Shown here: positions 55,296 through 61,245 of the stretch, piece by piece
How positions within the stretch are numbered: the first letter of the stretch is position 1
Layout of the letters: each line of letters begins with the position of its first letter
Virus record (IMG/VR): IMGVR_UViG_3300048838_001273
Location: 1-64,000 of that record
Source: a virus
Strand: one strand, 5' to 3'
Length of the DNA: 64,000 bases
The notes under the pieces: generated by a model
What the model was told of the DNA's origin: nothing
The model's database searches: none
The model's input: only the letters and a program-made list of their open reading frames with translations
Translations under genes and position numbers: made by a program

Positions 55296-56393
55296 TTAAA
55301 GACTAAATCTTTCTTGTTTTCTTGCTTTCTTCCTGAGTTCATTTACCTCACGAAGTGCATTTGGGTCGAACCTGTCACGTTTAACAACACTTACTAAGTG
55401 GTTAAATTCGTTTTCAGTAATTACCTGACCAACGTACCCTTCTGTTTTAAGAACAAAAGACTTTGGTGCAGTTCTTGAAGTTGACTGTCCTTCAGTATCT
55501 GCAGTTGCATTGAATGTAAGTTCAAGAAGTTCCTGAATCTTTTCATGCACGCTTGCGGTCATGGTCTGCTTTACTTTCTTCAAAGATTTTTCAAGCAAAT
55601 CAATGATATTATCCTGATGACTTTTCTTCATTTCATTGTATGTTTCGGTGAAAACATTCATTGAAGTCCTATTCTTTAACTCGCTGATAATTGCAAGTGC
55701 ACCGTAACAATCACGAATCATCAAATCCCAAACCTGTTCAGCGTATGTGAATGAAGGAAATTTATCGACTGCGACAATTTCACCATCAATCAACACAACA
55801 ATACCGATAAGATTTTTTGGACGTTCGAAGTGTGCAATGAACTGTTCGAGTTTCTTGTCATACTTATTAAAGTAAACGTCCAAGTAATTACCGGAATTAC
55901 ACTGAGTATCCTGTCCCAACTTCTGAATAGCAGGATAGATGTTACCGTGACCTGATGTTTGACCAACGGCATCGAATAACATTTCACGCATGGTTACTGG
56001 AATCATACGGAATTCCTGAGTACCACGGAAGTGTCCAGTCTGTCCACCCTGTACACAACCAGCATCATGATATGTAGTTTGTGCTTTAGGTTCAACATAA
56101 CCTGCCTTCACCATACCGTGGTTCTGAGCACTCTGTTTTGTCATAACAGCCATCTGAGCAGGAAGAATAACTTCCTTATTCTCTTTATTGGTGAAACTGA
56201 TTTGACCATATGAACTGTTACCAGCAGTCAATGAAGTCAAAGGATTAGCAAAACGCTCGTCCAATGAGAATTCTTTGTCAGTTGTTAAACACACGATTTG
56301 CATGTTCATAATTGACTGAACGATAATGTTACCTTCACTATCCTTGACAGGACGGCAACCTTTAAGTAATTCTGTGAAATCTCTTGTATTCAT
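55296..56393 (-). CDS. ARPP-1/DUF6569-like protein
   Basis: 'N....VILP...AQN......CVQ' and 'F......GIVVLIDGEIVAVDKF.S......W..MI...Y' match the ARPP pattern as recalled; needs HMM confirmation. Confidence 0.6.
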   Translation of the reverse strand: MNTRDFTELLKGCRPVKDSEGNIIVQSIMNMQIVCLTTDKEFSLDERFANPLTSLTAGNSSYGQISFTNKENKEVILPAQMAVMTKQSAQNHGMVKAGYVEPKAQTTYHDAGCVQGGQTGHFRGTQEFRMIPVTMREMLFDAVGQTSGHGNIYPAIQKLGQDTQCNSGNYLDVYFNKYDKKLEQFIAHFERPKNLIGIVVLIDGEIVAVDKFPSFTYAEQVWDLMIRDCYGALAIISELKNRTSMNVFTETYNEMKKSHQDNIIDLLEKSLKKVKQTMTASVHEKIQELLELTFNATADTEGQSTSRTAPKSFVLKTEGYVGQVITENEFNHLVSVVKRDRFDPNALREVNELRKKARKQERFSL

Positions 56394-56404: not shown

Positions 56405-58039
56405 TTAAGCGTTAACACTAATTTTATTTGACCTCTTAACAGGTGCAGCTTCTAAAGCACGAACCTGATTTTCAAGCCACCTTGGGGTATCGATTTCCAA
56501 TAACCTTGCGTTAATCTGTGGCTGAAGTGCAACTGGATTATTGATTGCCATTGTGACAACACCCGAACCCAATTTACGAACATTAGCACCCATTTCAGCA
56601 CTGGTGATTGGTGAAATCTGGAAAATCGGAATGCTCCTACCAGATTCTGCTTGCCAGATTGAAATAACTTCGTTGGTTAGACCATCGTAAGCATTTTCAT
56701 AACCATCAGTTAAGATGAAAATCGCATCATAAGGACGTGCAGTATTTTCTGATTTAAGCAATTCAATGAATGAACTTGCCAAGTCAGTAATTTCGTCACG
56801 AGTCTTAACAAATGTTGCAACATCTGCTGACCTACCCAATACCTTTGCAGTGAAATCAGCAATTGCCCTTGGAGTGTTCTTTGACTCAGCCTTATGACCA
56901 GTCATTGAAGCACTGTCATCGACAACAATACCAATACTCTGGTAGAAGAAACCTGCAATCTTTTTCTTTTCAGCAAGTTTACTAATTGCAACATTCAATT
57001 CAGGTGTGAAACCATTTTCATAACCTGTCTTGTAAAGTGCCATGAAGTCAGTTGCTTTTTCAAGTTCAACATGCTTTTCAACACCCAACTTCGCAGTACT
57101 TTTGGTCTGACGAACCTGCTGGTTAACCGAAGTTACCTTAACATTCTTACGAACCAAAGCCTTTGTTGCTTCTCTCTGAACAGCAGTTGCCCACATACTG
57201 TGGTACTGTGGGTGAGTTACAGAAGAAATTAAACCGAGCAATACTTCTTCCGGTACATTCTGAACATTGGTGATGTCAGTTTTTGCCTTCTGATATTCAT
57301 TTAAAATACTGAATTCACTGTAGTCAATACCAGTATCTCTTTTGAAGATGAATAACAATAACTTAAATGCACGAGTTGTGTCACCGTTAAAGTATTTCAA
57401 AAGCAAATCATTTGCAATACCCATTTCCTTTTCAGTTCCAATAAGAAGGTTGTTACCATAAGTAACGTACTTCTGTGCAATTGAAAGCAGAATTGAAGTT
57501 CTTTTTGTTCCATAGGTGTGCTTCAAAATATTTGCAAGTTTGTTACGGTACTTCAATGAATAGAATTCAAGGTTTGACTGACCCCAAATGAAGCCGAGTA
57601 CAATTTTCCTTGACCTTTCGTTGTTAATCCTTGATTTTTTCAAATCAATGAAAAGACGTAACGCATAGGTAATACCATTATCAGAACCTGCAAGGTTATT
57701 CAACGCACTAAGAACTGCCTTATCAGATAATCCATTATCATACCAGTCAATTGGATTAACTATATTACAAGCACCACCCCTATAGGTTTCTTTGAATTCG
57801 TTAAGCAATACCTCAGACACAAATCTTCCGGTAGCACCTTTTTGGCTTGCAATAATTAATGGAAGTTCCTTTGAAAGTTTATACATACTCCTAATCTGAG
57901 TCTGTAATGCCTTCATCTGTTCATCCTTTTTGTGGTAGTAAGTTGCTGAACTTTTGCTACCTGATGCAATTGTTAAACCTTCAATTAATGACTGCTTAAC
58001 GCTTGTAAGCATCTTCTGTGTTAATACCAATTTTTCCAT
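56405..58039 (-). CDS. Helical + vWA protein, divergent Ro60/TROVE-like candidate
   Basis: 544 aa; long helical N-terminus then vWA MIDAS 'VVDDSASM' and 'FILTDGYEN'; directly downstream of tRNA-like RNAs. Confidence 0.6.
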   Translation of the reverse strand: MEKLVLTQKMLTSVKQSLIEGLTIASGSKSSATYYHKKDEQMKALQTQIRSMYKLSKELPLIIASQKGATGRFVSEVLLNEFKETYRGGACNIVNPIDWYDNGLSDKAVLSALNNLAGSDNGITYALRLFIDLKKSRINNERSRKIVLGFIWGQSNLEFYSLKYRNKLANILKHTYGTKRTSILLSIAQKYVTYGNNLLIGTEKEMGIANDLLLKYFNGDTTRAFKLLLFIFKRDTGIDYSEFSILNEYQKAKTDITNVQNVPEEVLLGLISSVTHPQYHSMWATAVQREATKALVRKNVKVTSVNQQVRQTKSTAKLGVEKHVELEKATDFMALYKTGYENGFTPELNVAISKLAEKKKIAGFFYQSIGIVVDDSASMTGHKAESKNTPRAIADFTAKVLGRSADVATFVKTRDEITDLASSFIELLKSENTARPYDAIFILTDGYENAYDGLTNEVISIWQAESGRSIPIFQISPITSAEMGANVRKLGSGVVTMAINNPVALQPQINARLLEIDTPRWLENQVRALEAAPVKRSNKISVNA

Positions 58040-58068
58040 AATCTATATGTGTTTAAAATTTCGTTCTG

Positions 58069-58099
58069 CAATAATAACAATTATAATTCAATTTACAAA
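58069..58099 (-). promoter_or_regulatory. Bacteroidetes-type promoter (near consensus) for the vWA/ARPP genes
   Basis: TTTG-N19-TATTATTG. Confidence 0.5.
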
Positions 58100-58106
58100 A
58101 AAAATC

Positions 58107-58160
58107 AAAAAAAAAATGGGTGAGATGAAACATTTCTGCTCCAAGTCCCCACCCATTTTT
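58107..58160 (-). terminator. Terminator ending the ncRNA operon
   Basis: AAAAATGGGTG...CACCCATTTTT stem running into a U10 tract on the minus strand. Confidence 0.6.
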
Positions 58161-58193
58161 CATTTTGGAATACTCTTCTTCTAAAAAAAAAGA

Positions 58194-58284
58194 GAAGAAG
58201 TTCGGTTGTATTTTGGTAAGTTTGTCCCGCCTCTCATGAGCGGGATTACATTTTTCAATTTACTGTAAACACAGCCAGTTCTTC
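58194..58284 (-). ncRNA. Y-RNA-like RNA unit A
   Basis: 5' GAAGAA pairs with 3' UUCUUC; GUGUUUACAGUAA motif opposite CUUAC..AAAUAC; inner UCCCGC/GCGGGA hairpin. Confidence 0.65.
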
Positions 58285-58494
58285 CACCAAATTTCTTGTT
58301 TTTGAAAAACTCAGTACTTCTACTTAGAAAACCATTCTTAACCTCTCGTGCGTTTAAAACGCAAATTCAAATGTTAGGTGGTATGCCCCTTTTTTGTTAA
58401 AAAATTCTGATACCAACAGCCAAAAACTTTAAGCAGTGGGGTTTGCTTAATATTAAATAAATCTTATTTGCTAACCGTCACCACTTAATAACTT

Positions 58495-58634
58495 AGGGAA
58501 CATTTTAAAAGTATTTGTTGTTTTTAATGCAAGTTTAACCGACTTGTGACTTAACCGCTTGTCTAATTTTCAATTTTGGCTGAAAATGAAGGATTCGAAC
58601 CTCCGTATTACTGTAAACACTTTTCGTTTTCCCT
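58495..58634 (-). ncRNA. Y-RNA-like RNA unit B: circularly permuted tRNA mimic
   Basis: AGGGAA/UUCCCU ends; motif; T arm GGAGG-UUCGAAU-CCUUC; closed acceptor AUUUUCA-GCCAAAAU-UGAAAAU; D arm GAC-AAGCGGUUAA-GUC; anticodon arm CAAGU-CGGUUAA-ACUUG. Confidence 0.8.
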
Positions 58635-58700
58635 TTGTACTTTAAAGAACGTTACCCCGAAGTTTGTGTTGCCACAGGGACAACGGGGAATTATAATTTT

Positions 58701-58776
58701 AGAAGAAATTCGTTAGTCTTGTGTTGTAAGTGTCTGATTTACCGTCAAATTTACTGTAAAAACTATCAGTTCTTCT
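58701..58776 (-). ncRNA. Y-RNA-like RNA unit C
   Basis: AGAAGAA/UUCUUCU ends; GUUUUUACAGUAA motif opposite CUUAC; inner UUUGA-CGGUAAA-UCAGA hairpin. Confidence 0.7.
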
Positions 58777-58781
58777 TTTTG

Positions 58782-58854
58782 TAGCGGGAGAGGGATTCGA
58801 ACCCCCGACCTCTTGGTTATGAGCCAAGCGAGATACCACTTCTACCATCCCGCA
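58782..58854 (-). tRNA. tRNA-Met(CAT), initiator-like, CCA not encoded
   Basis: Acceptor UGCGGGA/UCCCGCU (1:72 mismatch), anticodon arm CUUGG-CUCAUAA-CCAAG, T arm GGGGG-UUCGAAU-CCCUC. Confidence 0.85.
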
Positions 58855-58892
58855 ATATAAAGGGTTTTTGTGAAAAACCCTTAAAAACTTTG

Positions 58893-59028
58893 TGGGGAGA
58901 ACAGGACTCGAACCTGTAATCTATTGATTTCAACTCAATTGCTTTACCTTTACTGAAAACACTACGAGTTCTCTCTGTGAAGAGAGCAGTGAGATAGTAT
59001 TTCTTGTTTTTGTTTTTGCTATCTCCCC
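58893..59028 (-). ncRNA. tRNA-like RNA unit D with ~65-nt insertion in the D-loop
   Basis: Acceptor GGGGAGA/UCUCCCC; T arm ACAGG-UUCGAGU-CCUGU; anticodon arm AUUGA-GUUGAAA-UCAAU; insertion carries GUGUUUUCAGUAAA. Confidence 0.75.
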
Positions 59029-59074
59029 ATGTAAAAAAATTCATTTCTTAAAAGAACGTTGTCCAAAGACTCTG

Positions 59075-59106
59075 CAAATATAAAACACCTTTTTTTAATA
59101 TGCAAG
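59075..59106 (-). promoter_or_regulatory. Bacteroidetes-type promoter of the RNA operon
   Basis: CTTG-N20-TATATTTG. Confidence 0.75.
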
Positions 59107-59199
59107 TGTTTTTGAAAAAAAATAAAAATATTTTTATAGACCTCTGGAAAAATAAATACTTGATGTTTTACAAAAAGTTACATTTTTTTATAAAAATTT

Positions 59200-61245
59200 T
59201 CACTCTTTTTTTATAACATTCTGTCTTTTACGTAATTGCGCCAACTTTTCTTTTATAAATTTTTCATTATCTTGTGGTGCATCCGGGTCAATTAACCTGT
59301 CATTAACATCTATTTCAGTATTAATATTTTTTTGAACTGGTGGTAAAATTTCTTTTCTTTCTTGAATTTCGGGTAGTGTTTCAACTGATTCTTGCACAAT
59401 ATTAGGTACGTCTTTTAACTCGACTTCCTTTTCAATGACATTAGTATAAAAGGTTTCACCAGTCCAACTATCCATTATAAAATCAGTATCTGTTGTGTTT
59501 ATTCCCTCATTTACTCCCTCACTTACTCCCTCATTTACACCATCACTTACACCATCAGGTTCGTCAGTAGCTTCTTCATCTATTTCTAATATACTTCCAG
59601 TACTCGGCACTACAATATCTTCTACAGTCTCAGGCACATTATTTCCAGTTTTACCGGACATCAAATCTTCTAAACTATCTTTATACGATTGAATTTTACC
59701 GGGTTTTACAGCATCATTTGGAGTATCATTTACGGCATCATCTTTCAGTTTTCCCTCAATTATATTTCCATAATACTCACTAACAGGTATATGAATAGCA
59801 GTACCTGTCTTATTTGTCTTATCTTCCAATTTGTCAATATCTGGAGTATCGTGGTGCTTGATGTTTTTACTCATCTTGCTATACTTATACCTGTCATCTT
59901 CGATTTTGATTTCCATTGTATCATTATTGAAGATACAGTTCGTAAAAGTCTGACCGTCTTGTGCAAACCTTGCTTTAATAATTCTGATATTAGCAAGATG
60001 TGCTTCTTTTTGTTCAGGAGTTTTTGCCACACTCATGAAAAAGTGTGCTTTTTGTACTCTCTTTATATTACCACCAGTTTGATGAACCTCAACGAATTCA
60101 GAATCGAAACCACTACGGTTTGACTGAATTGCAGTCCATGCAGGAATATTCAAATCTCCGGCAAGTGCTTCGAATGATTTAACAATTACAAGTTCAGCTT
60201 CATTTCTATCTGCAGTTTTTTTATGAGATTCCAAACAATCCAGATAATCCAAAACAATTTCATCAAAAACATATCCATATTTTTTCTGATGCCTTGTAAT
60301 CCAGTTACGAATATCCATCATAGTGGTGTTCTCCTGACTAAATTTCTTAATCATGAGTTTACCTCTACCCCTTTTTCTTAATTCATCGGCTTTTTCATGT
60401 GAAAGTTTAGTTACTCTCTCATTTTCATCATCTTCATTTAACTGGCTCAACTTAGATTTTGTCCAAATTGTAAAGTGCTTTCTCTGAATCTGTTCTACAG
60501 TATCTTCGAAGACGATTTGAAGTACGTTTTTACCAACTTCAAGTCCGGTATTTGCTATTTTTGTTAGTAATGTTGTTTTACCAACACCCGATGGTGTTAA
60601 TATTACACCAATTTCTCCCTTACCTAACCCACCACCAGTAAGTACGTCAATAACTTCAACACCAGTGGGTATTGTTTCTCTGAATTCTTTTCTTAATGCC
60701 TTTTCAATGTTATCTGTAACTTCAGTACCATAATCTTCTTCTTCACCAATATGTGAGATTTTCAAGAATTTTTCTTCAATATAACCAAGAGTGTGTTTAT
60801 GTTTTATTTCACCACTTTTGGTTTTAGCTAAAATATATTCACCTATCTTCCTGTATTCCTGTTGTTTAATGAAATTATTGGTTGCCTTTTGTACAACAAT
60901 ACCGTCATAAAGCATTTCTTTATTTAAAACCCTTTCATTCCATAATTCAACACGTTTAATTACAGCAAATAAGGATTCTTCCTCGATTATGTTGTTCGGA
61001 GTTTTATAAGAATTAATTGCAAGATGTATACTTTTATTTTGAAGATTTGGTACTTTTTCATACTCTTTATAATACTCCAAAATGATGAGAAACAGCCTTT
61101 TTAAATAAGGGTCATCAAAGTATTCTACTTCTAAATTTGGTATTGTTTTTTCTGCAAACTCCGGTTCTACAAGCAATTGCCACATTAGGCTTTGTTGAAA
61201 ATCAGGACCGAGATATGCAGAAAATGTATTTGTACTATCACTCAT
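59200..61245 (-). CDS. dnaB: Replicative DnaB/T4 gp41-like helicase with acidic C-terminal extension
   Basis: 'IPTG', 'GGGL', Walker A 'TPSGVGKT', 'VLDYLD', 'WTAIQSNR', 'KARF'. Confidence 0.9.
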   Translation of the reverse strand: MSDSTNTFSAYLGPDFQQSLMWQLLVEPEFAEKTIPNLEVEYFDDPYLKRLFLIILEYYKEYEKVPNLQNKSIHLAINSYKTPNNIIEEESLFAVIKRVELWNERVLNKEMLYDGIVVQKATNNFIKQQEYRKIGEYILAKTKSGEIKHKHTLGYIEEKFLKISHIGEEEDYGTEVTDNIEKALRKEFRETIPTGVEVIDVLTGGGLGKGEIGVILTPSGVGKTTLLTKIANTGLEVGKNVLQIVFEDTVEQIQRKHFTIWTKSKLSQLNEDDENERVTKLSHEKADELRKRGRGKLMIKKFSQENTTMMDIRNWITRHQKKYGYVFDEIVLDYLDCLESHKKTADRNEAELVIVKSFEALAGDLNIPAWTAIQSNRSGFDSEFVEVHQTGGNIKRVQKAHFFMSVAKTPEQKEAHLANIRIIKARFAQDGQTFTNCIFNNDTMEIKIEDDRYKYSKMSKNIKHHDTPDIDKLEDKTNKTGTAIHIPVSEYYGNIIEGKLKDDAVNDTPNDAVKPGKIQSYKDSLEDLMSGKTGNNVPETVEDIVVPSTGSILEIDEEATDEPDGVSDGVNEGVSEGVNEGINTTDTDFIMDSWTGETFYTNVIEKEVELKDVPNIVQESVETLPEIQERKEILPPVQKNINTEIDVNDRLIDPDAPQDNEKFIKEKLAQLRKRQNVIKKE

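What the first reader, a model, noticed from the sequence alone, without database searches (positions are those of the whole stretch)
58893..59028. Normal-order tRNA with the shared handle grafted, permuted, into its D-loop
Acceptor, anticodon and T arms are intact. Between UAGC and GGUAAAGC lies a ~65-nt insert: AAAUACUA...CUCUCU-UCAC-AGAGAG-AACUCG-UAGUGUUUUCAGUAAA. This is the same stem as in units A-C but with the 3' half first and closed by a loop. The same handle therefore sits at two different tRNA positions (D-loop here, variable loop in unit B). The anticodon loop GUUGAAA reads UGA (Ser) on a short-variable-loop body, which is not a Ser-type tRNA, so it is probably a mimic rather than a decoder. 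An excisable intron-like insert is an alternative.
Basis: partly seen in the sequence, partly recalled or inferred. Interest (0 to 1): 0.8.

Follow-up and report, generated by a model that had tools for sequence, protein, structure and literature searches.

The report
Handle-tagged tRNA mimic beside phage Ro60
A giant phage encodes a small RNA that folds as a complete tRNA with an extra conserved two-helix arm in its D loop; the arm also tags neighbouring RNAs just upstream of a hidden Ro60 relative, so it is most likely an undescribed form of Y RNA, not a broken or spliced tRNA.

Summary
On the minus strand, 59028 to 58893 folds as a full tRNA cloverleaf with a 64-nt insert in the D loop, between nucleotide 15 and G18. 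The insert is an A-rich linker plus a two-helix "handle": Pb (AAAUACU:AGUGUUU), an internal loop with AACU, and the Pa hairpin.

In 31 homologues, 96.9% of pair cells are paired and 21 of 31 pairs show compensatory changes. A covariance model finds 76 copies in related jumbo phages. It also finds one in a 60%-GC Myxococcota MAG, where Pb is fully re-paired.

The same handle closes a circularly permuted tRNA mimic and two hairpin RNAs in the same block. The next gene (544 aa, no Pfam hit) is predicted to fold as Ro60 (Z 18.6 over its full length). An ARPP-1 gene follows it in 55 of 55 phage loci and 54 of 61 cellular loci.

Anticodon-loop positions 32-36 are hypervariable among relatives and often lack U33.

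Best reading (0.6): a Y-RNA-like tRNA mimic that keeps the insert as a docking arm for the Ro60-like protein. Binding is inferred, and splicing is not excluded.

The scan reported this kind of RNA before on other DNA (e1-5346390, e1-5935525).

The parts
58893..59028 (-). Whole handle-tagged tRNA-like RNA (class I), 136 nt
   Evidence: CM R1 144 bits; MFE z -3.48; covariation
59022..59028 (-). Acceptor stem, 5' strand (GGGGAGA)
   Evidence: 7 of 7 pairs; 6 pairs have compensatory changes in 31 sequences
58894..58900 (-). Acceptor stem, 3' strand (UCUCCCC); discriminator A at 58893
58950..59013 (-). 64-nt insert in the D loop: A-rich linker, Pb, internal loop, Pa hairpin, UCAGUAA
   Evidence: Alignment A2. 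Deleting it in silico gives ARAGORN tRNA calls in 31 of 31.
58996..59002 (-). Pb helix, 5' strand (AAAUACU)
   Evidence: 96% paired and 3 pairs compensated. Fully re-paired as CCCCUC:GAGGGG in L127 and CCAAUU:AAUUGG in L116.
58957..58963 (-). Pb helix, 3' strand (AGUGUUU), followed by conserved UCAGUAA (58950-58956)
   Evidence: The motif recurs four times in the block.
58971..58986 (-). Pa hairpin (CUCUCU-UCAC-AGAGAG), followed by invariant AACU (58967-58970)
   Evidence: 5 of 5 counted pairs have compensatory changes
58991..58997 (-). Anti-5'-end segment CUAUCUC, complementary to nt 4-10 (GAGAUAG)
   Evidence: A perfect 7-mer complement is present in 34 of 61 unique copies, against 6% for shuffled 7-mers. 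Five compensated type pairs.
58923..58939 (-). Anticodon arm AUUGA-GUUGAAA-UCAAU; anticodon UGA at 58930-58932
   Evidence: Stem 100% paired. Loop positions 32-36 are hypervariable, entropy 1.37 bits.
58901..58917 (-). T arm ACAGG-UUCGAGU-CCUGU
   Evidence: 4 of 5 pairs compensated; T loop conserved
58781..58854 (-). Ordinary tRNA-Met (CAU) in the same RNA block
   Evidence: ARAGORN; Rfam 52.3 bits
58701..58776 (-). Handle-closed small RNA whose cargo is an anticodon-arm-like hairpin (loop CGGUAAA)
   Evidence: Sequence reading; homologues listed
58496..58633 (-). Handle-closed, circularly permuted tRNA mimic. Order: T arm, acceptor 3' strand, G-CCA, linker, acceptor 5' strand, D arm, anticodon arm.
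   Evidence: RNAalifold on 33 homologues: 36 pairs, 21 of them compensated
58194..58285 (-). Handle-closed small RNA with a GC hairpin cargo (loop UCAUGAGAG)
   Evidence: Sequence reading; homologues
56405..58039 (-). 544-aa Ro60-like protein (helical ring plus vWA with a DxSxS MIDAS motif)
   Evidence: AF2 pLDDT 92.2. The top 12 Foldseek matches are all Ro60. VIA Z 18.6 over residues 16-515. D374, S376 and S378 are conserved.
55296..56393 (-). 365-aa ARPP-1 domain protein, the conserved partner gene
   Evidence: PF20208, E 1.6e-15. It lies downstream on the same strand in 55 of 55 phage loci and 54 of 61 cellular loci.

Best explanation
This is a gene for a stable, tRNA-shaped non-coding RNA of the Y-RNA kind.

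The body keeps what is needed for the tRNA L-shape:
- a 7-bp acceptor stem;
- U8 and A14;
- G18 and G19 in the D loop;
- a 5-bp anticodon arm and a 5-nt variable loop;
- the UUCGANU T loop.

A conserved arm (Pb helix, internal loop with AACU, Pa hairpin, flanked by UCAGUAA and an A-rich linker) projects from the size-tolerant part of the D loop.

Inferred steps:
- The arm stays in the mature RNA.
- It is the docking site for the Ro60-like ring protein encoded 854 nt downstream. This protein probably acts with its conserved ARPP-1 partner.
- The exposed tRNA body, with its fast-changing anticodon loop, is the effector module. It would act as a bait, decoy or tether for a tRNA-binding factor, such as a host anticodon nuclease or another tRNA enzyme.

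What is shown here: the fold, its conservation and covariation, the shared handle, the Ro60 fold of the neighbouring protein, and the conserved gene order.

What is inferred: retention of the insert, binding to the Ro60-like protein, and the decoy or tether role.
For: - Fold and covariation.
- Family size: 76 phage copies, clearly separated from ordinary tRNAs.
- Deep conservation: a distant copy beside a homologue of the same protein (29% identical over the aligned part) in a 60%-GC Myxococcota MAG. Both Pb strands are changed there but still pair.
- Shared handle: it closes the termini of three sister RNAs in the block, which is the layout of Y RNAs. One of them is a permuted tRNA mimic like YrlA (PMC4201824; bioRxiv 10.1101/312249).
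- Neighbouring protein: it has the Ro60 fold over its full length, Z 18.6 against 12 or less for vWA-only matches.
- Position: the RNA block lies directly upstream on the same strand. This is the criterion used to find YrlA (PMC4201824) and the phiLo Yrl RNAs (PMC12135203).
- Co-occurrence: the handle motif occurs 2-6 times upstream of the protein gene in 71 of 72 related loci. In the 78.9-kb record it is confined to this block.
- Anticodon loop: positions 32-36 are the most variable functional region, and 17 of 27 near-identical pairs differ there. U33 is absent from 16 of 58 loops.
- Identity rules (established knowledge): bacterial SerRS uses the long variable arm, which this body lacks, so a UGA anticodon on it fits no standard identity set.
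- RNA data: one RNA-library contig of a relative spans the insert contiguously. This is weak.
Against: - There are no binding or expression data.
- The protein has no sequence-level TROVE match.
- The handle lacks the GNCGAA(N)G motif of bacterial Y RNAs, and nothing here matches an Rfam family other than tRNA.
- Unlike every described Y RNA, this RNA's ends form an acceptor stem, not the Ro-binding stem.
- NGA anticodons dominate the main lineage (26 of 58) and are kept in the Myxococcota copy. That suggests the anticodon matters.
- Some relatives encode CCA after the discriminator.
- All five complete relatives encode an RNA ligase, so ligation after excision is feasible.
Confidence: 0.6

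Rival explanations
1. The insert is an excisable intron of a new kind. An endonuclease recognises the handle and cuts on both sides, and a phage or host RNA ligase joins the exons to give a 72-nt tRNA. In the neighbouring units, where the handle halves flank the cargo, the same reaction would give circles that RNase P and RNase Z then open.
For: - In-silico deletion gives ARAGORN-positive tRNAs in 31 of 31 cases.
- The U run of Pb could complete a 4-bp D stem (sequence reading).
- A segment of the insert pairs with the end of the 5' exon and covaries with it, like an internal guide sequence.
- RNA ligases are present in 5 of 5 complete relatives.
- Most permuted units encode N73-CCA.
- Permuted pre-tRNAs are processed this way in algae and archaea (cited in bioRxiv 10.1101/312249).
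Against: - No EndA-type splicing endonuclease is found in five complete relatives.
- No bulge-helix-bulge motif can be drawn, and 64 nt is far too small for a group I intron. No intron family matched in Rfam.
- Many relatives have non-U33 loops, and some permuted units have acceptor stems closed by 3-5 nt without CCA. Such products could not decode.
- Two handle-closed units carry only a hairpin, not a tRNA.
- An RNA-library contig keeps the insert.
Confidence: 0.12
2. The RNA keeps the insert and is still a working, aminoacylated tRNA that reads UCN codons. The extra D-loop arm replaces the long variable arm as the recognition element, or serves another purpose.
For: - The window copy has an open acceptor end, discriminator A, U33 and A37.
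- NGA anticodons dominate and are conserved in the Myxococcota copy.
- The commonest anticodon types, Ser and Tyr, are those of class II tRNAs in bacteria (plus established knowledge).
Against: - All 8 GUA-type loops lack U33.
- Loop positions 32-36 change between near-identical copies.
- A 64-nt arm at the elbow side would have to fit EF-Tu and the ribosome. No precedent is known to me.
Confidence: 0.1
3. The handle is a signal for something other than the Ro60-like protein. It could be a processing site for an RNase III-like or phage endonuclease that releases the RNAs of the operon, or the binding site of the ARPP-1 protein or a host factor.
For: - In the sister units the handle halves flank the cargo, like rRNA processing stems.
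- ARPP-1 is as tightly linked to the block as the Ro60-like gene.
- No binding data exist.
Against: - A processing stem inside a D loop would split the tRNA body.
- Conservation of the internal-loop bases (AACU, UCAGUAA) and of the helix geometry, rather than a long perfect duplex, points to specific protein recognition.
- Ro60 proteins are known to bind such stem-loop-stem RNAs encoded next to them (PMC4201824, PMC12135203).
Confidence: 0.13
4. It is a decayed tRNA pseudogene with a chance insertion.
For: ARAGORN does not call it, and the Rfam tRNA score is borderline.
Against: - 76 conserved copies with compensatory changes in every helix, the insert included.
- A copy in a different phylum-level background.
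Confidence: 0.01

Closest known systems
YrlA-type Y RNAs bound by bacterial and phage Rsr/Ro60 (Chen et al. 2014, PMC4201824; structure in bioRxiv 10.1101/312249)
   Same: - A small RNA encoded next to a Ro60-type gene on the same strand.
- Modular: a protein-binding stem plus a domain that mimics the tRNA elbow, with conserved T and D arms.
- Several paralogues per locus.
- Also present in phages.
   Different: - YrlA is circularly permuted, its acceptor is closed by a loop, it has no anticodon loop, and the Ro-binding stem is made by its 5' and 3' ends.
- This RNA is in normal tRNA order, with an open acceptor end and a full anticodon arm. The handle is an internal hairpin in the D loop.
- The handle sequence (AACU, GUGUUU, ACAGUAA) is unlike GNCGAA(N)G.
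- No Rfam family other than tRNA matches.
- The protein is too divergent for the Pfam TROVE model.
Thermus phage phiLo Ro60 with Yrl1 and Yrl2 (PMC12135203; PDB 9KOP, 9L5Y)
   Same: - A phage Ro60 with partner RNAs encoded just upstream.
- A stem, internal loop, stem design.
- The phiLo protein is among the structural matches of the window's protein (Z 15.3).
   Different: - As described in that paper, the phiLo RNAs are classical end-paired Y RNAs with a CGAA motif and are not reported to contain a tRNA body.
- Binding was shown experimentally there. Here it is inferred.
Non-canonical tRNA introns and circularly permuted tRNA genes of archaea and algae (bulge-helix-bulge splicing)
   Same: - An insert at a non-anticodon position of a tRNA gene.
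- A neighbouring permuted tRNA gene whose flanks pair.
- Removing the insert in silico restores a tRNA.
   Different: - There is no bulge-helix-bulge motif.
- No EndA homologue is found in five complete relatives.
- The same element also flanks non-tRNA hairpins.
- Many copies have loops unfit for decoding.
- Bacterial and phage tRNA introns known so far are group I, which are much larger.
Class II tRNAs (Ser, Leu, bacterial Tyr) with a long extra arm
   Same: - A tRNA with one additional helical arm projecting from the core.
- The commonest anticodon types here are Ser-like and Tyr-like.
   Different: - The extra arm sits in the D loop, not the variable region.
- It is about 60 nt with two helices.
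- It is shared with non-tRNA RNAs.

Membership tests
Y RNA / YrlA (Ro60 partner RNA) | Encoded within about 4 kb of a Ro60 orthologue, on the same strand | tested here: met
   The RNA's 3' end at 58893 lies 854 nt upstream of the start (58039) of the Ro60-fold gene, on the same strand. The same order is seen in 71 of 72 related loci.
Y RNA / YrlA (Ro60 partner RNA) | Physically bound by the Ro60 protein | not testable with these tools
   No protein-RNA binding or co-fold tool is available. This needs EMSA or RIP.
Y RNA / YrlA (Ro60 partner RNA) | Long stem made by the 5' and 3' ends that carries the Ro60-binding site | tested here: not met
   In this RNA the ends form the tRNA acceptor stem and the handle is an internal hairpin. 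The three sister units do have the end-paired form.
Y RNA / YrlA (Ro60 partner RNA) | Conserved GNCGAA(N)G motif on the 5' strand (PMC4201824) | tested here: not met
   Alignment A2 shows invariant AACU and no CGAA in this class. CGAA appears in only some of the permuted units.
Y RNA / YrlA (Ro60 partner RNA) | tRNA-like module with conserved T and D arms forming the elbow | tested here: met
   The T loop UUCGANU is conserved, and so are the GG of the D loop, U8 and A14.
Y RNA / YrlA (Ro60 partner RNA) | Match to a curated Rfam Y RNA model | tested here: not met
   Only RF00005 (tRNA) matches at the gathering threshold. No Y-RNA family appears at E up to 10 in 57500-59500.
Canonical decoding tRNA | Cloverleaf with a 7-bp acceptor stem, 5-bp anticodon and T stems, and a 7-nt anticodon loop with U33 | tested here: met
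   Met in the window copy. 16 of 58 7-nt loops aligned by the model lack U33.
Canonical decoding tRNA | D arm of normal size (D loop about 7-11 nt) | tested here: not met
   A 64-nt insert lies between nt 15 and G18. ARAGORN does not call the gene.
Canonical decoding tRNA | Identity elements that fit the anticodon (Ser in bacteria: long variable arm) | tested here: not met
   The variable loop is 5 nt, AGAUU. The SerRS identity rule comes from established knowledge.
Canonical decoding tRNA | Aminoacylation and use on the ribosome | not testable with these tools
   This needs charging assays.
Intron-containing tRNA gene | A recognisable splicing signal (bulge-helix-bulge, or a group I core) | tested here: not met
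   The consensus structure has no 3-nt bulge, 4-bp helix, 3-nt bulge arrangement at the junctions. No intron family matched in Rfam. 64 nt is too short for a group I intron.
Intron-containing tRNA gene | Splicing machinery encoded or available | tested here: inconclusive
   EndA (PF01974) is absent from five complete relatives. RtcB or Rnl2-type ligases are present in all five. Host enzymes are unknown.
Intron-containing tRNA gene | Spliced product observed | tested here: inconclusive
   Only contigs of relatives in RNA libraries were available. One spans the insert and no joint skips it. Contigs cannot show absence.
Ro60/TROVE protein (the neighbouring gene) | Sequence match to the TROVE domain | tested here: not met
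   No Pfam match for the protein or for any of 88 family members. No PDB match by sequence profile.
Ro60/TROVE protein (the neighbouring gene) | Helical-repeat ring followed by a vWA domain with a MIDAS motif | tested here: met
   AF2 pLDDT 92, pTM 0.90. The 12 best Foldseek matches are all Ro60. Z 18.6, 404 residues aligned, model residues 16-515. D374, S376 and S378 are conserved.

The most novel reading that the evidence does not exclude
The Ro60-like and ARPP-1 gene pair, together with its array of handle-tagged tRNA bodies, is a previously unrecognised ribonucleoprotein system shared by jumbo phages and by tRNA-array loci of Planctomycetota, Myxococcota and Bacteroidota. In this reading, the fast-evolving anticodon loops are a changeable set of baits. 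They would capture, sense or neutralise anticodon-targeting nucleases and other tRNA-directed weapons. The D-loop version would present a whole tRNA with a free acceptor end.
Probability: 0.2. Interest if true: 0.9.

Novelty: new variant of a known kind. Interest (0 to 1): 0.68.

Why it matters
Y RNAs and Ro60 are conserved from bacteria to humans, and Ro60 is a major autoantigen. What the tRNA-like module of bacterial Y RNAs does is still unknown.

This locus shows that one protein-docking handle can be joined to a tRNA body at several different permissive sites: the D loop here, the variable loop and the termini next door, and apparently the anticodon loop in Myxococcota. The part that changes fastest is the anticodon loop. 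That makes two questions directly testable: what the tRNA module is for, and whether it meets tRNA-targeting defence nucleases.

It also uncovers a large Ro60-like family that is invisible to Pfam. The family is always paired with an ARPP-1 protein and sits beside tRNA arrays in several phyla.

On the practical side, genome annotators will miss these genes or mis-call them as partial tRNAs.

Tried and rejected
- A blastn search of the whole RNA block against GenBank phages matched only the tRNA-Met.
- PHROGs and Pfam gave nothing for the 544-aa protein. PDB searches by sequence and by profile gave nothing useful.
- Rfam at E up to 10 gave only chance-level sRNA matches besides tRNA.
- The sigma-70 promoter and terminator scan was at chance level.
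- My first scripts for classifying units and finding the 5' handle partner by simple complementarity were too noisy in this AT-rich DNA. I replaced them with covariance-model and RNAalifold analyses.
- Scans of viral contigs with two distant homologues found nothing.
- Sequencing runs held only small shares of the block. Laying four RNA-library runs gave contigs of relatives only. There were no joints across the insert, no circular junctions and no usable ends. DNA carry-over cannot be excluded.
- I considered a hammerhead, hairpin, twister or pistol ribozyme, a CRISPR repeat, and a palindromic operator (TTTACAGTAAA). I rejected these because no Rfam match exists, the motif is part of a covarying helix, and it is read on one strand only.
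- Complex prediction was not used, because it does not take RNA.

Full report
**Setting.** The window is part of a 78.9-kb viral record that CheckV rates 22% complete. Relatives are complete genomes of 320-365 kb with terminal repeats, so this is a jumbo phage. All genes run on the minus strand at about 33% GC. Between a DnaB-like helicase (59200-61245) and a 544-aa ORF (56405-58039) lies a non-coding block of about 1.15 kb. ARAGORN sees only one tRNA-Met there. Rfam adds a borderline partial tRNA match at 58901-58954 (29.4 bits, model positions 9-63).

**The observation.** Read on the minus strand, 59028 to 58893 contains, in order:
- a 7-bp acceptor stem;
- U8 and A9;
- a short D stem;
- a 64-nt insert;
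- a D-loop 3' side that keeps GG;
- a 5-bp anticodon stem with loop GUUGAAA (anticodon UGA);
- a 5-nt variable loop;
- a T arm with UUCGAGU;
- a discriminator A.

The minimum-free-energy fold of the single sequence gives this architecture (z -3.48; 0 of 200 shuffles fold as well).

The insert has four parts:
- an A-rich linker;
- helix Pb (AAAUACU pairing with AGUGUUU);
- an internal loop whose 3' strand begins with invariant AACU;
- hairpin Pa.

Pb is followed by conserved UCAGUAA. In standard tRNA numbering the insert sits between nucleotide 15 and G18. From general tRNA knowledge, that is the part of the D loop that tolerates length variation.

**Is it more than chance?** I fetched homologous loci through the two flanking proteins.
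- Thirty-one homologues align over the full length.
- RNAalifold recovers the acceptor, Pb, Pa, anticodon and T helices.
- On the named structure, 96.9% of cells pair, against 44-53% when partners are slid. Twenty-one of 31 pairs show changes on both sides, and no shuffle out of 500 reaches the observed values.
- A covariance model built from this alignment finds 76 full-length copies at 82-149 bits in related loci. The next matches, ordinary tRNAs, score 43 bits or less. The window has one copy, at 144 bits.
- If alignment columns 14-87 are deleted in a script, ARAGORN of 31 sequences as tRNAs. Unspliced, it makes two partial calls.

The body is therefore a complete tRNA, and the insert is a discrete, conserved, structured module. 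The pseudogene reading is excluded.

**The same handle elsewhere.** The motif GUGUUUACAGUAA, or a one-base variant, occurs four times in the block. It occurs 2-6 times upstream of the 544-aa gene in 71 of 72 related loci.

In the three other units of the window, the 3' half of the handle comes first and the 5' half follows the cargo. Pa is then formed by the RNA's ends. For the unit at 58633-58496, an alignment of 33 homologues gives these helices:
- Pa (GGGAA with UUCCC);
- an extended Pb;
- a T arm;
- an acceptor stem closed by G-CCA plus a linker;
- a D arm;
- an anticodon arm.

That is 36 pairs, 21 of them with compensatory changes. In every unit the cargo is attached at the Pb end. The handle itself is not rearranged. 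Only its distal end is either looped (here) or open.

**The neighbouring genes.**
- The 544-aa protein has no Pfam or PHROG match. It has hundreds of homologues.
- With an 88-sequence alignment, AlphaFold2 gives a confident model (pLDDT 92.2, pTM 0.90) of a helical region followed by a vWA domain.
- The twelve best Foldseek matches in the PDB are all Ro60 proteins, including human, Xenopus, Deinococcus Rsr and Thermus phage phiLo.
- VIA-align gives Z 18.6 over residues 16-515, well above vWA-only matches at Z 12 or less. The MIDAS residues D374, S376 and S378 are conserved.
- The next gene encodes an ARPP-1 domain protein (PF20208, E 1.6e-15). It follows the Ro60-like gene on the same strand in 55 of 55 phage loci with enough DNA, and in 54 of 61 loci from cellular assemblies (Pfam confirmed in two of them).

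**Distant relatives.** Homologues of the Ro60-like protein at 25-31% identity occur in Planctomycetota, Myxococcota, Bacteroidota and others.
- Sixteen such loci hold 124 tRNA matches, all on the protein's strand.
- The covariance model finds a copy of the D-loop-insert RNA in a Myxococcota MAG with 60% GC (L127:2534-2663, 64.7 bits). Pb there reads CCCCUC with GAGGGG, and the anticodon is CGA.
- Another copy is in L116 (72.5 bits), with Pb as CCAAUU with AAUUGG.
- Directly after the L127 copy lies a unit that I read as a permuted tRNA mimic with a closed acceptor stem.

The pairing of this RNA type with this protein family is therefore old, and the helices are kept by structure, not by sequence.

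**Decoder or mimic?** Loop positions 32-36 have a mean entropy of 1.37 bits, against 0.3-0.5 for the flanking stem and the T loop. Seventeen of 27 sequence pairs that are at least 85% identical elsewhere differ in these five bases, often at three or four of them. These loop tallies come from all model matches of 120 nt or more, which include a few long ordinary tRNAs.

Among 58 seven-base loops:
- 25 read UGA and 1 reads CGA;
- 8 read GUA, and none of those has U33;
- 16 loops in total lack U33.

A UGA anticodon on a body with a 5-nt variable loop fits no standard bacterial identity set (established knowledge of SerRS recognition). Some permuted sister units have acceptor stems closed by 3-5 nt without CCA. 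These points favour a non-decoding mimic.

Against that, NGA is kept in the main lineage and in the Myxococcota copy, and some relatives encode CCA after the discriminator.

**Splicing?** No bulge-helix-bulge can be drawn, and no intron or ribozyme family matches. Five complete relatives lack an EndA-type endonuclease. All five do carry an RtcB or Rnl2-type RNA ligase.

A segment of the insert (CUAUCUC) is complementary to nucleotides 4-10. It is perfectly complementary in 34 of 61 unique copies, against 6% for shuffled 7-mers, with five compensated type pairs. This could be a guide-like pairing, or an alternative fold that frees the 3' strand. I cannot decide which.

Metatranscriptome contigs of relatives include one that spans the insert and none that skips it. 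They are contigs, and DNA carry-over is possible.

**Comparison with the literature.**
- Bacterial and phage YrlA RNAs are tRNA mimics encoded beside rsr. Their Ro-binding stem is made by the RNA ends, their acceptor is closed, and they have no anticodon loop (PMC4201824; bioRxiv 10.1101/312249).
- Thermus phage phiLo Ro60 binds two upstream Y-like RNAs (PMC12135203).
- A survey of jumbo phages notes TROVE proteins in a few phages (PMC7824862).
- ARPP has been described in other gene contexts, not with TROVE (PMC9503650).
- My full-text searches found no description of a handle inside the D loop of a normal-order tRNA, or of a Ro60-like and ARPP pair.
- Earlier notes of this scan report the same kind of RNA on other genomes.

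**Verdict.** The most likely reading (0.6) is a Y-RNA-like tRNA mimic that keeps the D-loop arm as a docking handle for the Ro60-like protein. The rivals are splicing (0.12), a working tRNA with an extra arm (0.10), and a handle serving another factor or a processing step (0.13). It is a new variant of a known kind.

Noticed in passing
window 59075-59082 (- strand) and 59047-59058, 58649-58660 (- strand): TATATTTG lies about 47 nt upstream of the RNA's 5' end and fits the Bacteroidota-type -7 promoter consensus TAnnTTTG (recalled from memory). It is conserved in L009, L011 and L021. A second motif, AACGTTCTTTAA, recurs 10-25 nt upstream of the class I and permuted units here and in relatives. 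It may be a promoter element or a processing signal.
   Followed up: no
L114:723-844, L114:852-975, L122:615-739: In Myxococcota tRNA arrays upstream of the Ro60-like gene, some tRNAs have a normal D arm but a conserved insert of about 50 nt in the anticodon-loop region (ACCGUCU...GAUGGUUAUC). This looks like a handle placed at yet another tRNA position.
   Followed up: partly
L009:6362-6477, L011:5923-6040, L021:6265-6338, L008:4425-4539, L014:3675-3748: In relatives, the first RNA of the block is a normal-order tRNA flanked by handle-like halves (GGAAAC...GUUAUUACAGUAA, and a complementary trailer). Its body is conserved, but its anticodon differs between relatives: UAU, UUC, GCU and UCA.
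   Followed up: partly
L010:3632-3723, L011:6084-6172, L015:6517-6608, L019:7207-7293: In several relatives the tRNA-Met of the block is 87-92 nt long, with an extra stretch in the variable region. The window's copy is a normal 74 nt.
   Followed up: no
L094 (JBAZIW010000001.1, 362,763 nt): A contig deposited as a 'Candidatus Paceibacterota bacterium' MAG has the same length as a complete jumbo-phage record of this family (IMG/VR 3300029288_000055) and carries the same locus. It is probably a phage genome binned as a bacterium. L116, labelled Pacearchaeota, may be similar.
   Followed up: no
window 58991-58997 with 59019-59025 (- strand): The insert segment CUAUCUC can pair with nt 4-10 of the RNA in competition with the acceptor stem, and it covaries with them. 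This would free the 3' strand. I have no tested explanation. An alternative conformer that offers a single-stranded 3' end to the Ro ring is one idea.
   Followed up: partly
window 58110-58225 (- strand): Two hairpins followed by U runs sit at the end of the RNA block, just before the Ro60-like gene (CUUCUUCUC...GAAGAAG, and GGGUGGGGA...UCUCACCC followed by U10). The simple terminator scan did not list them.
   Followed up: no
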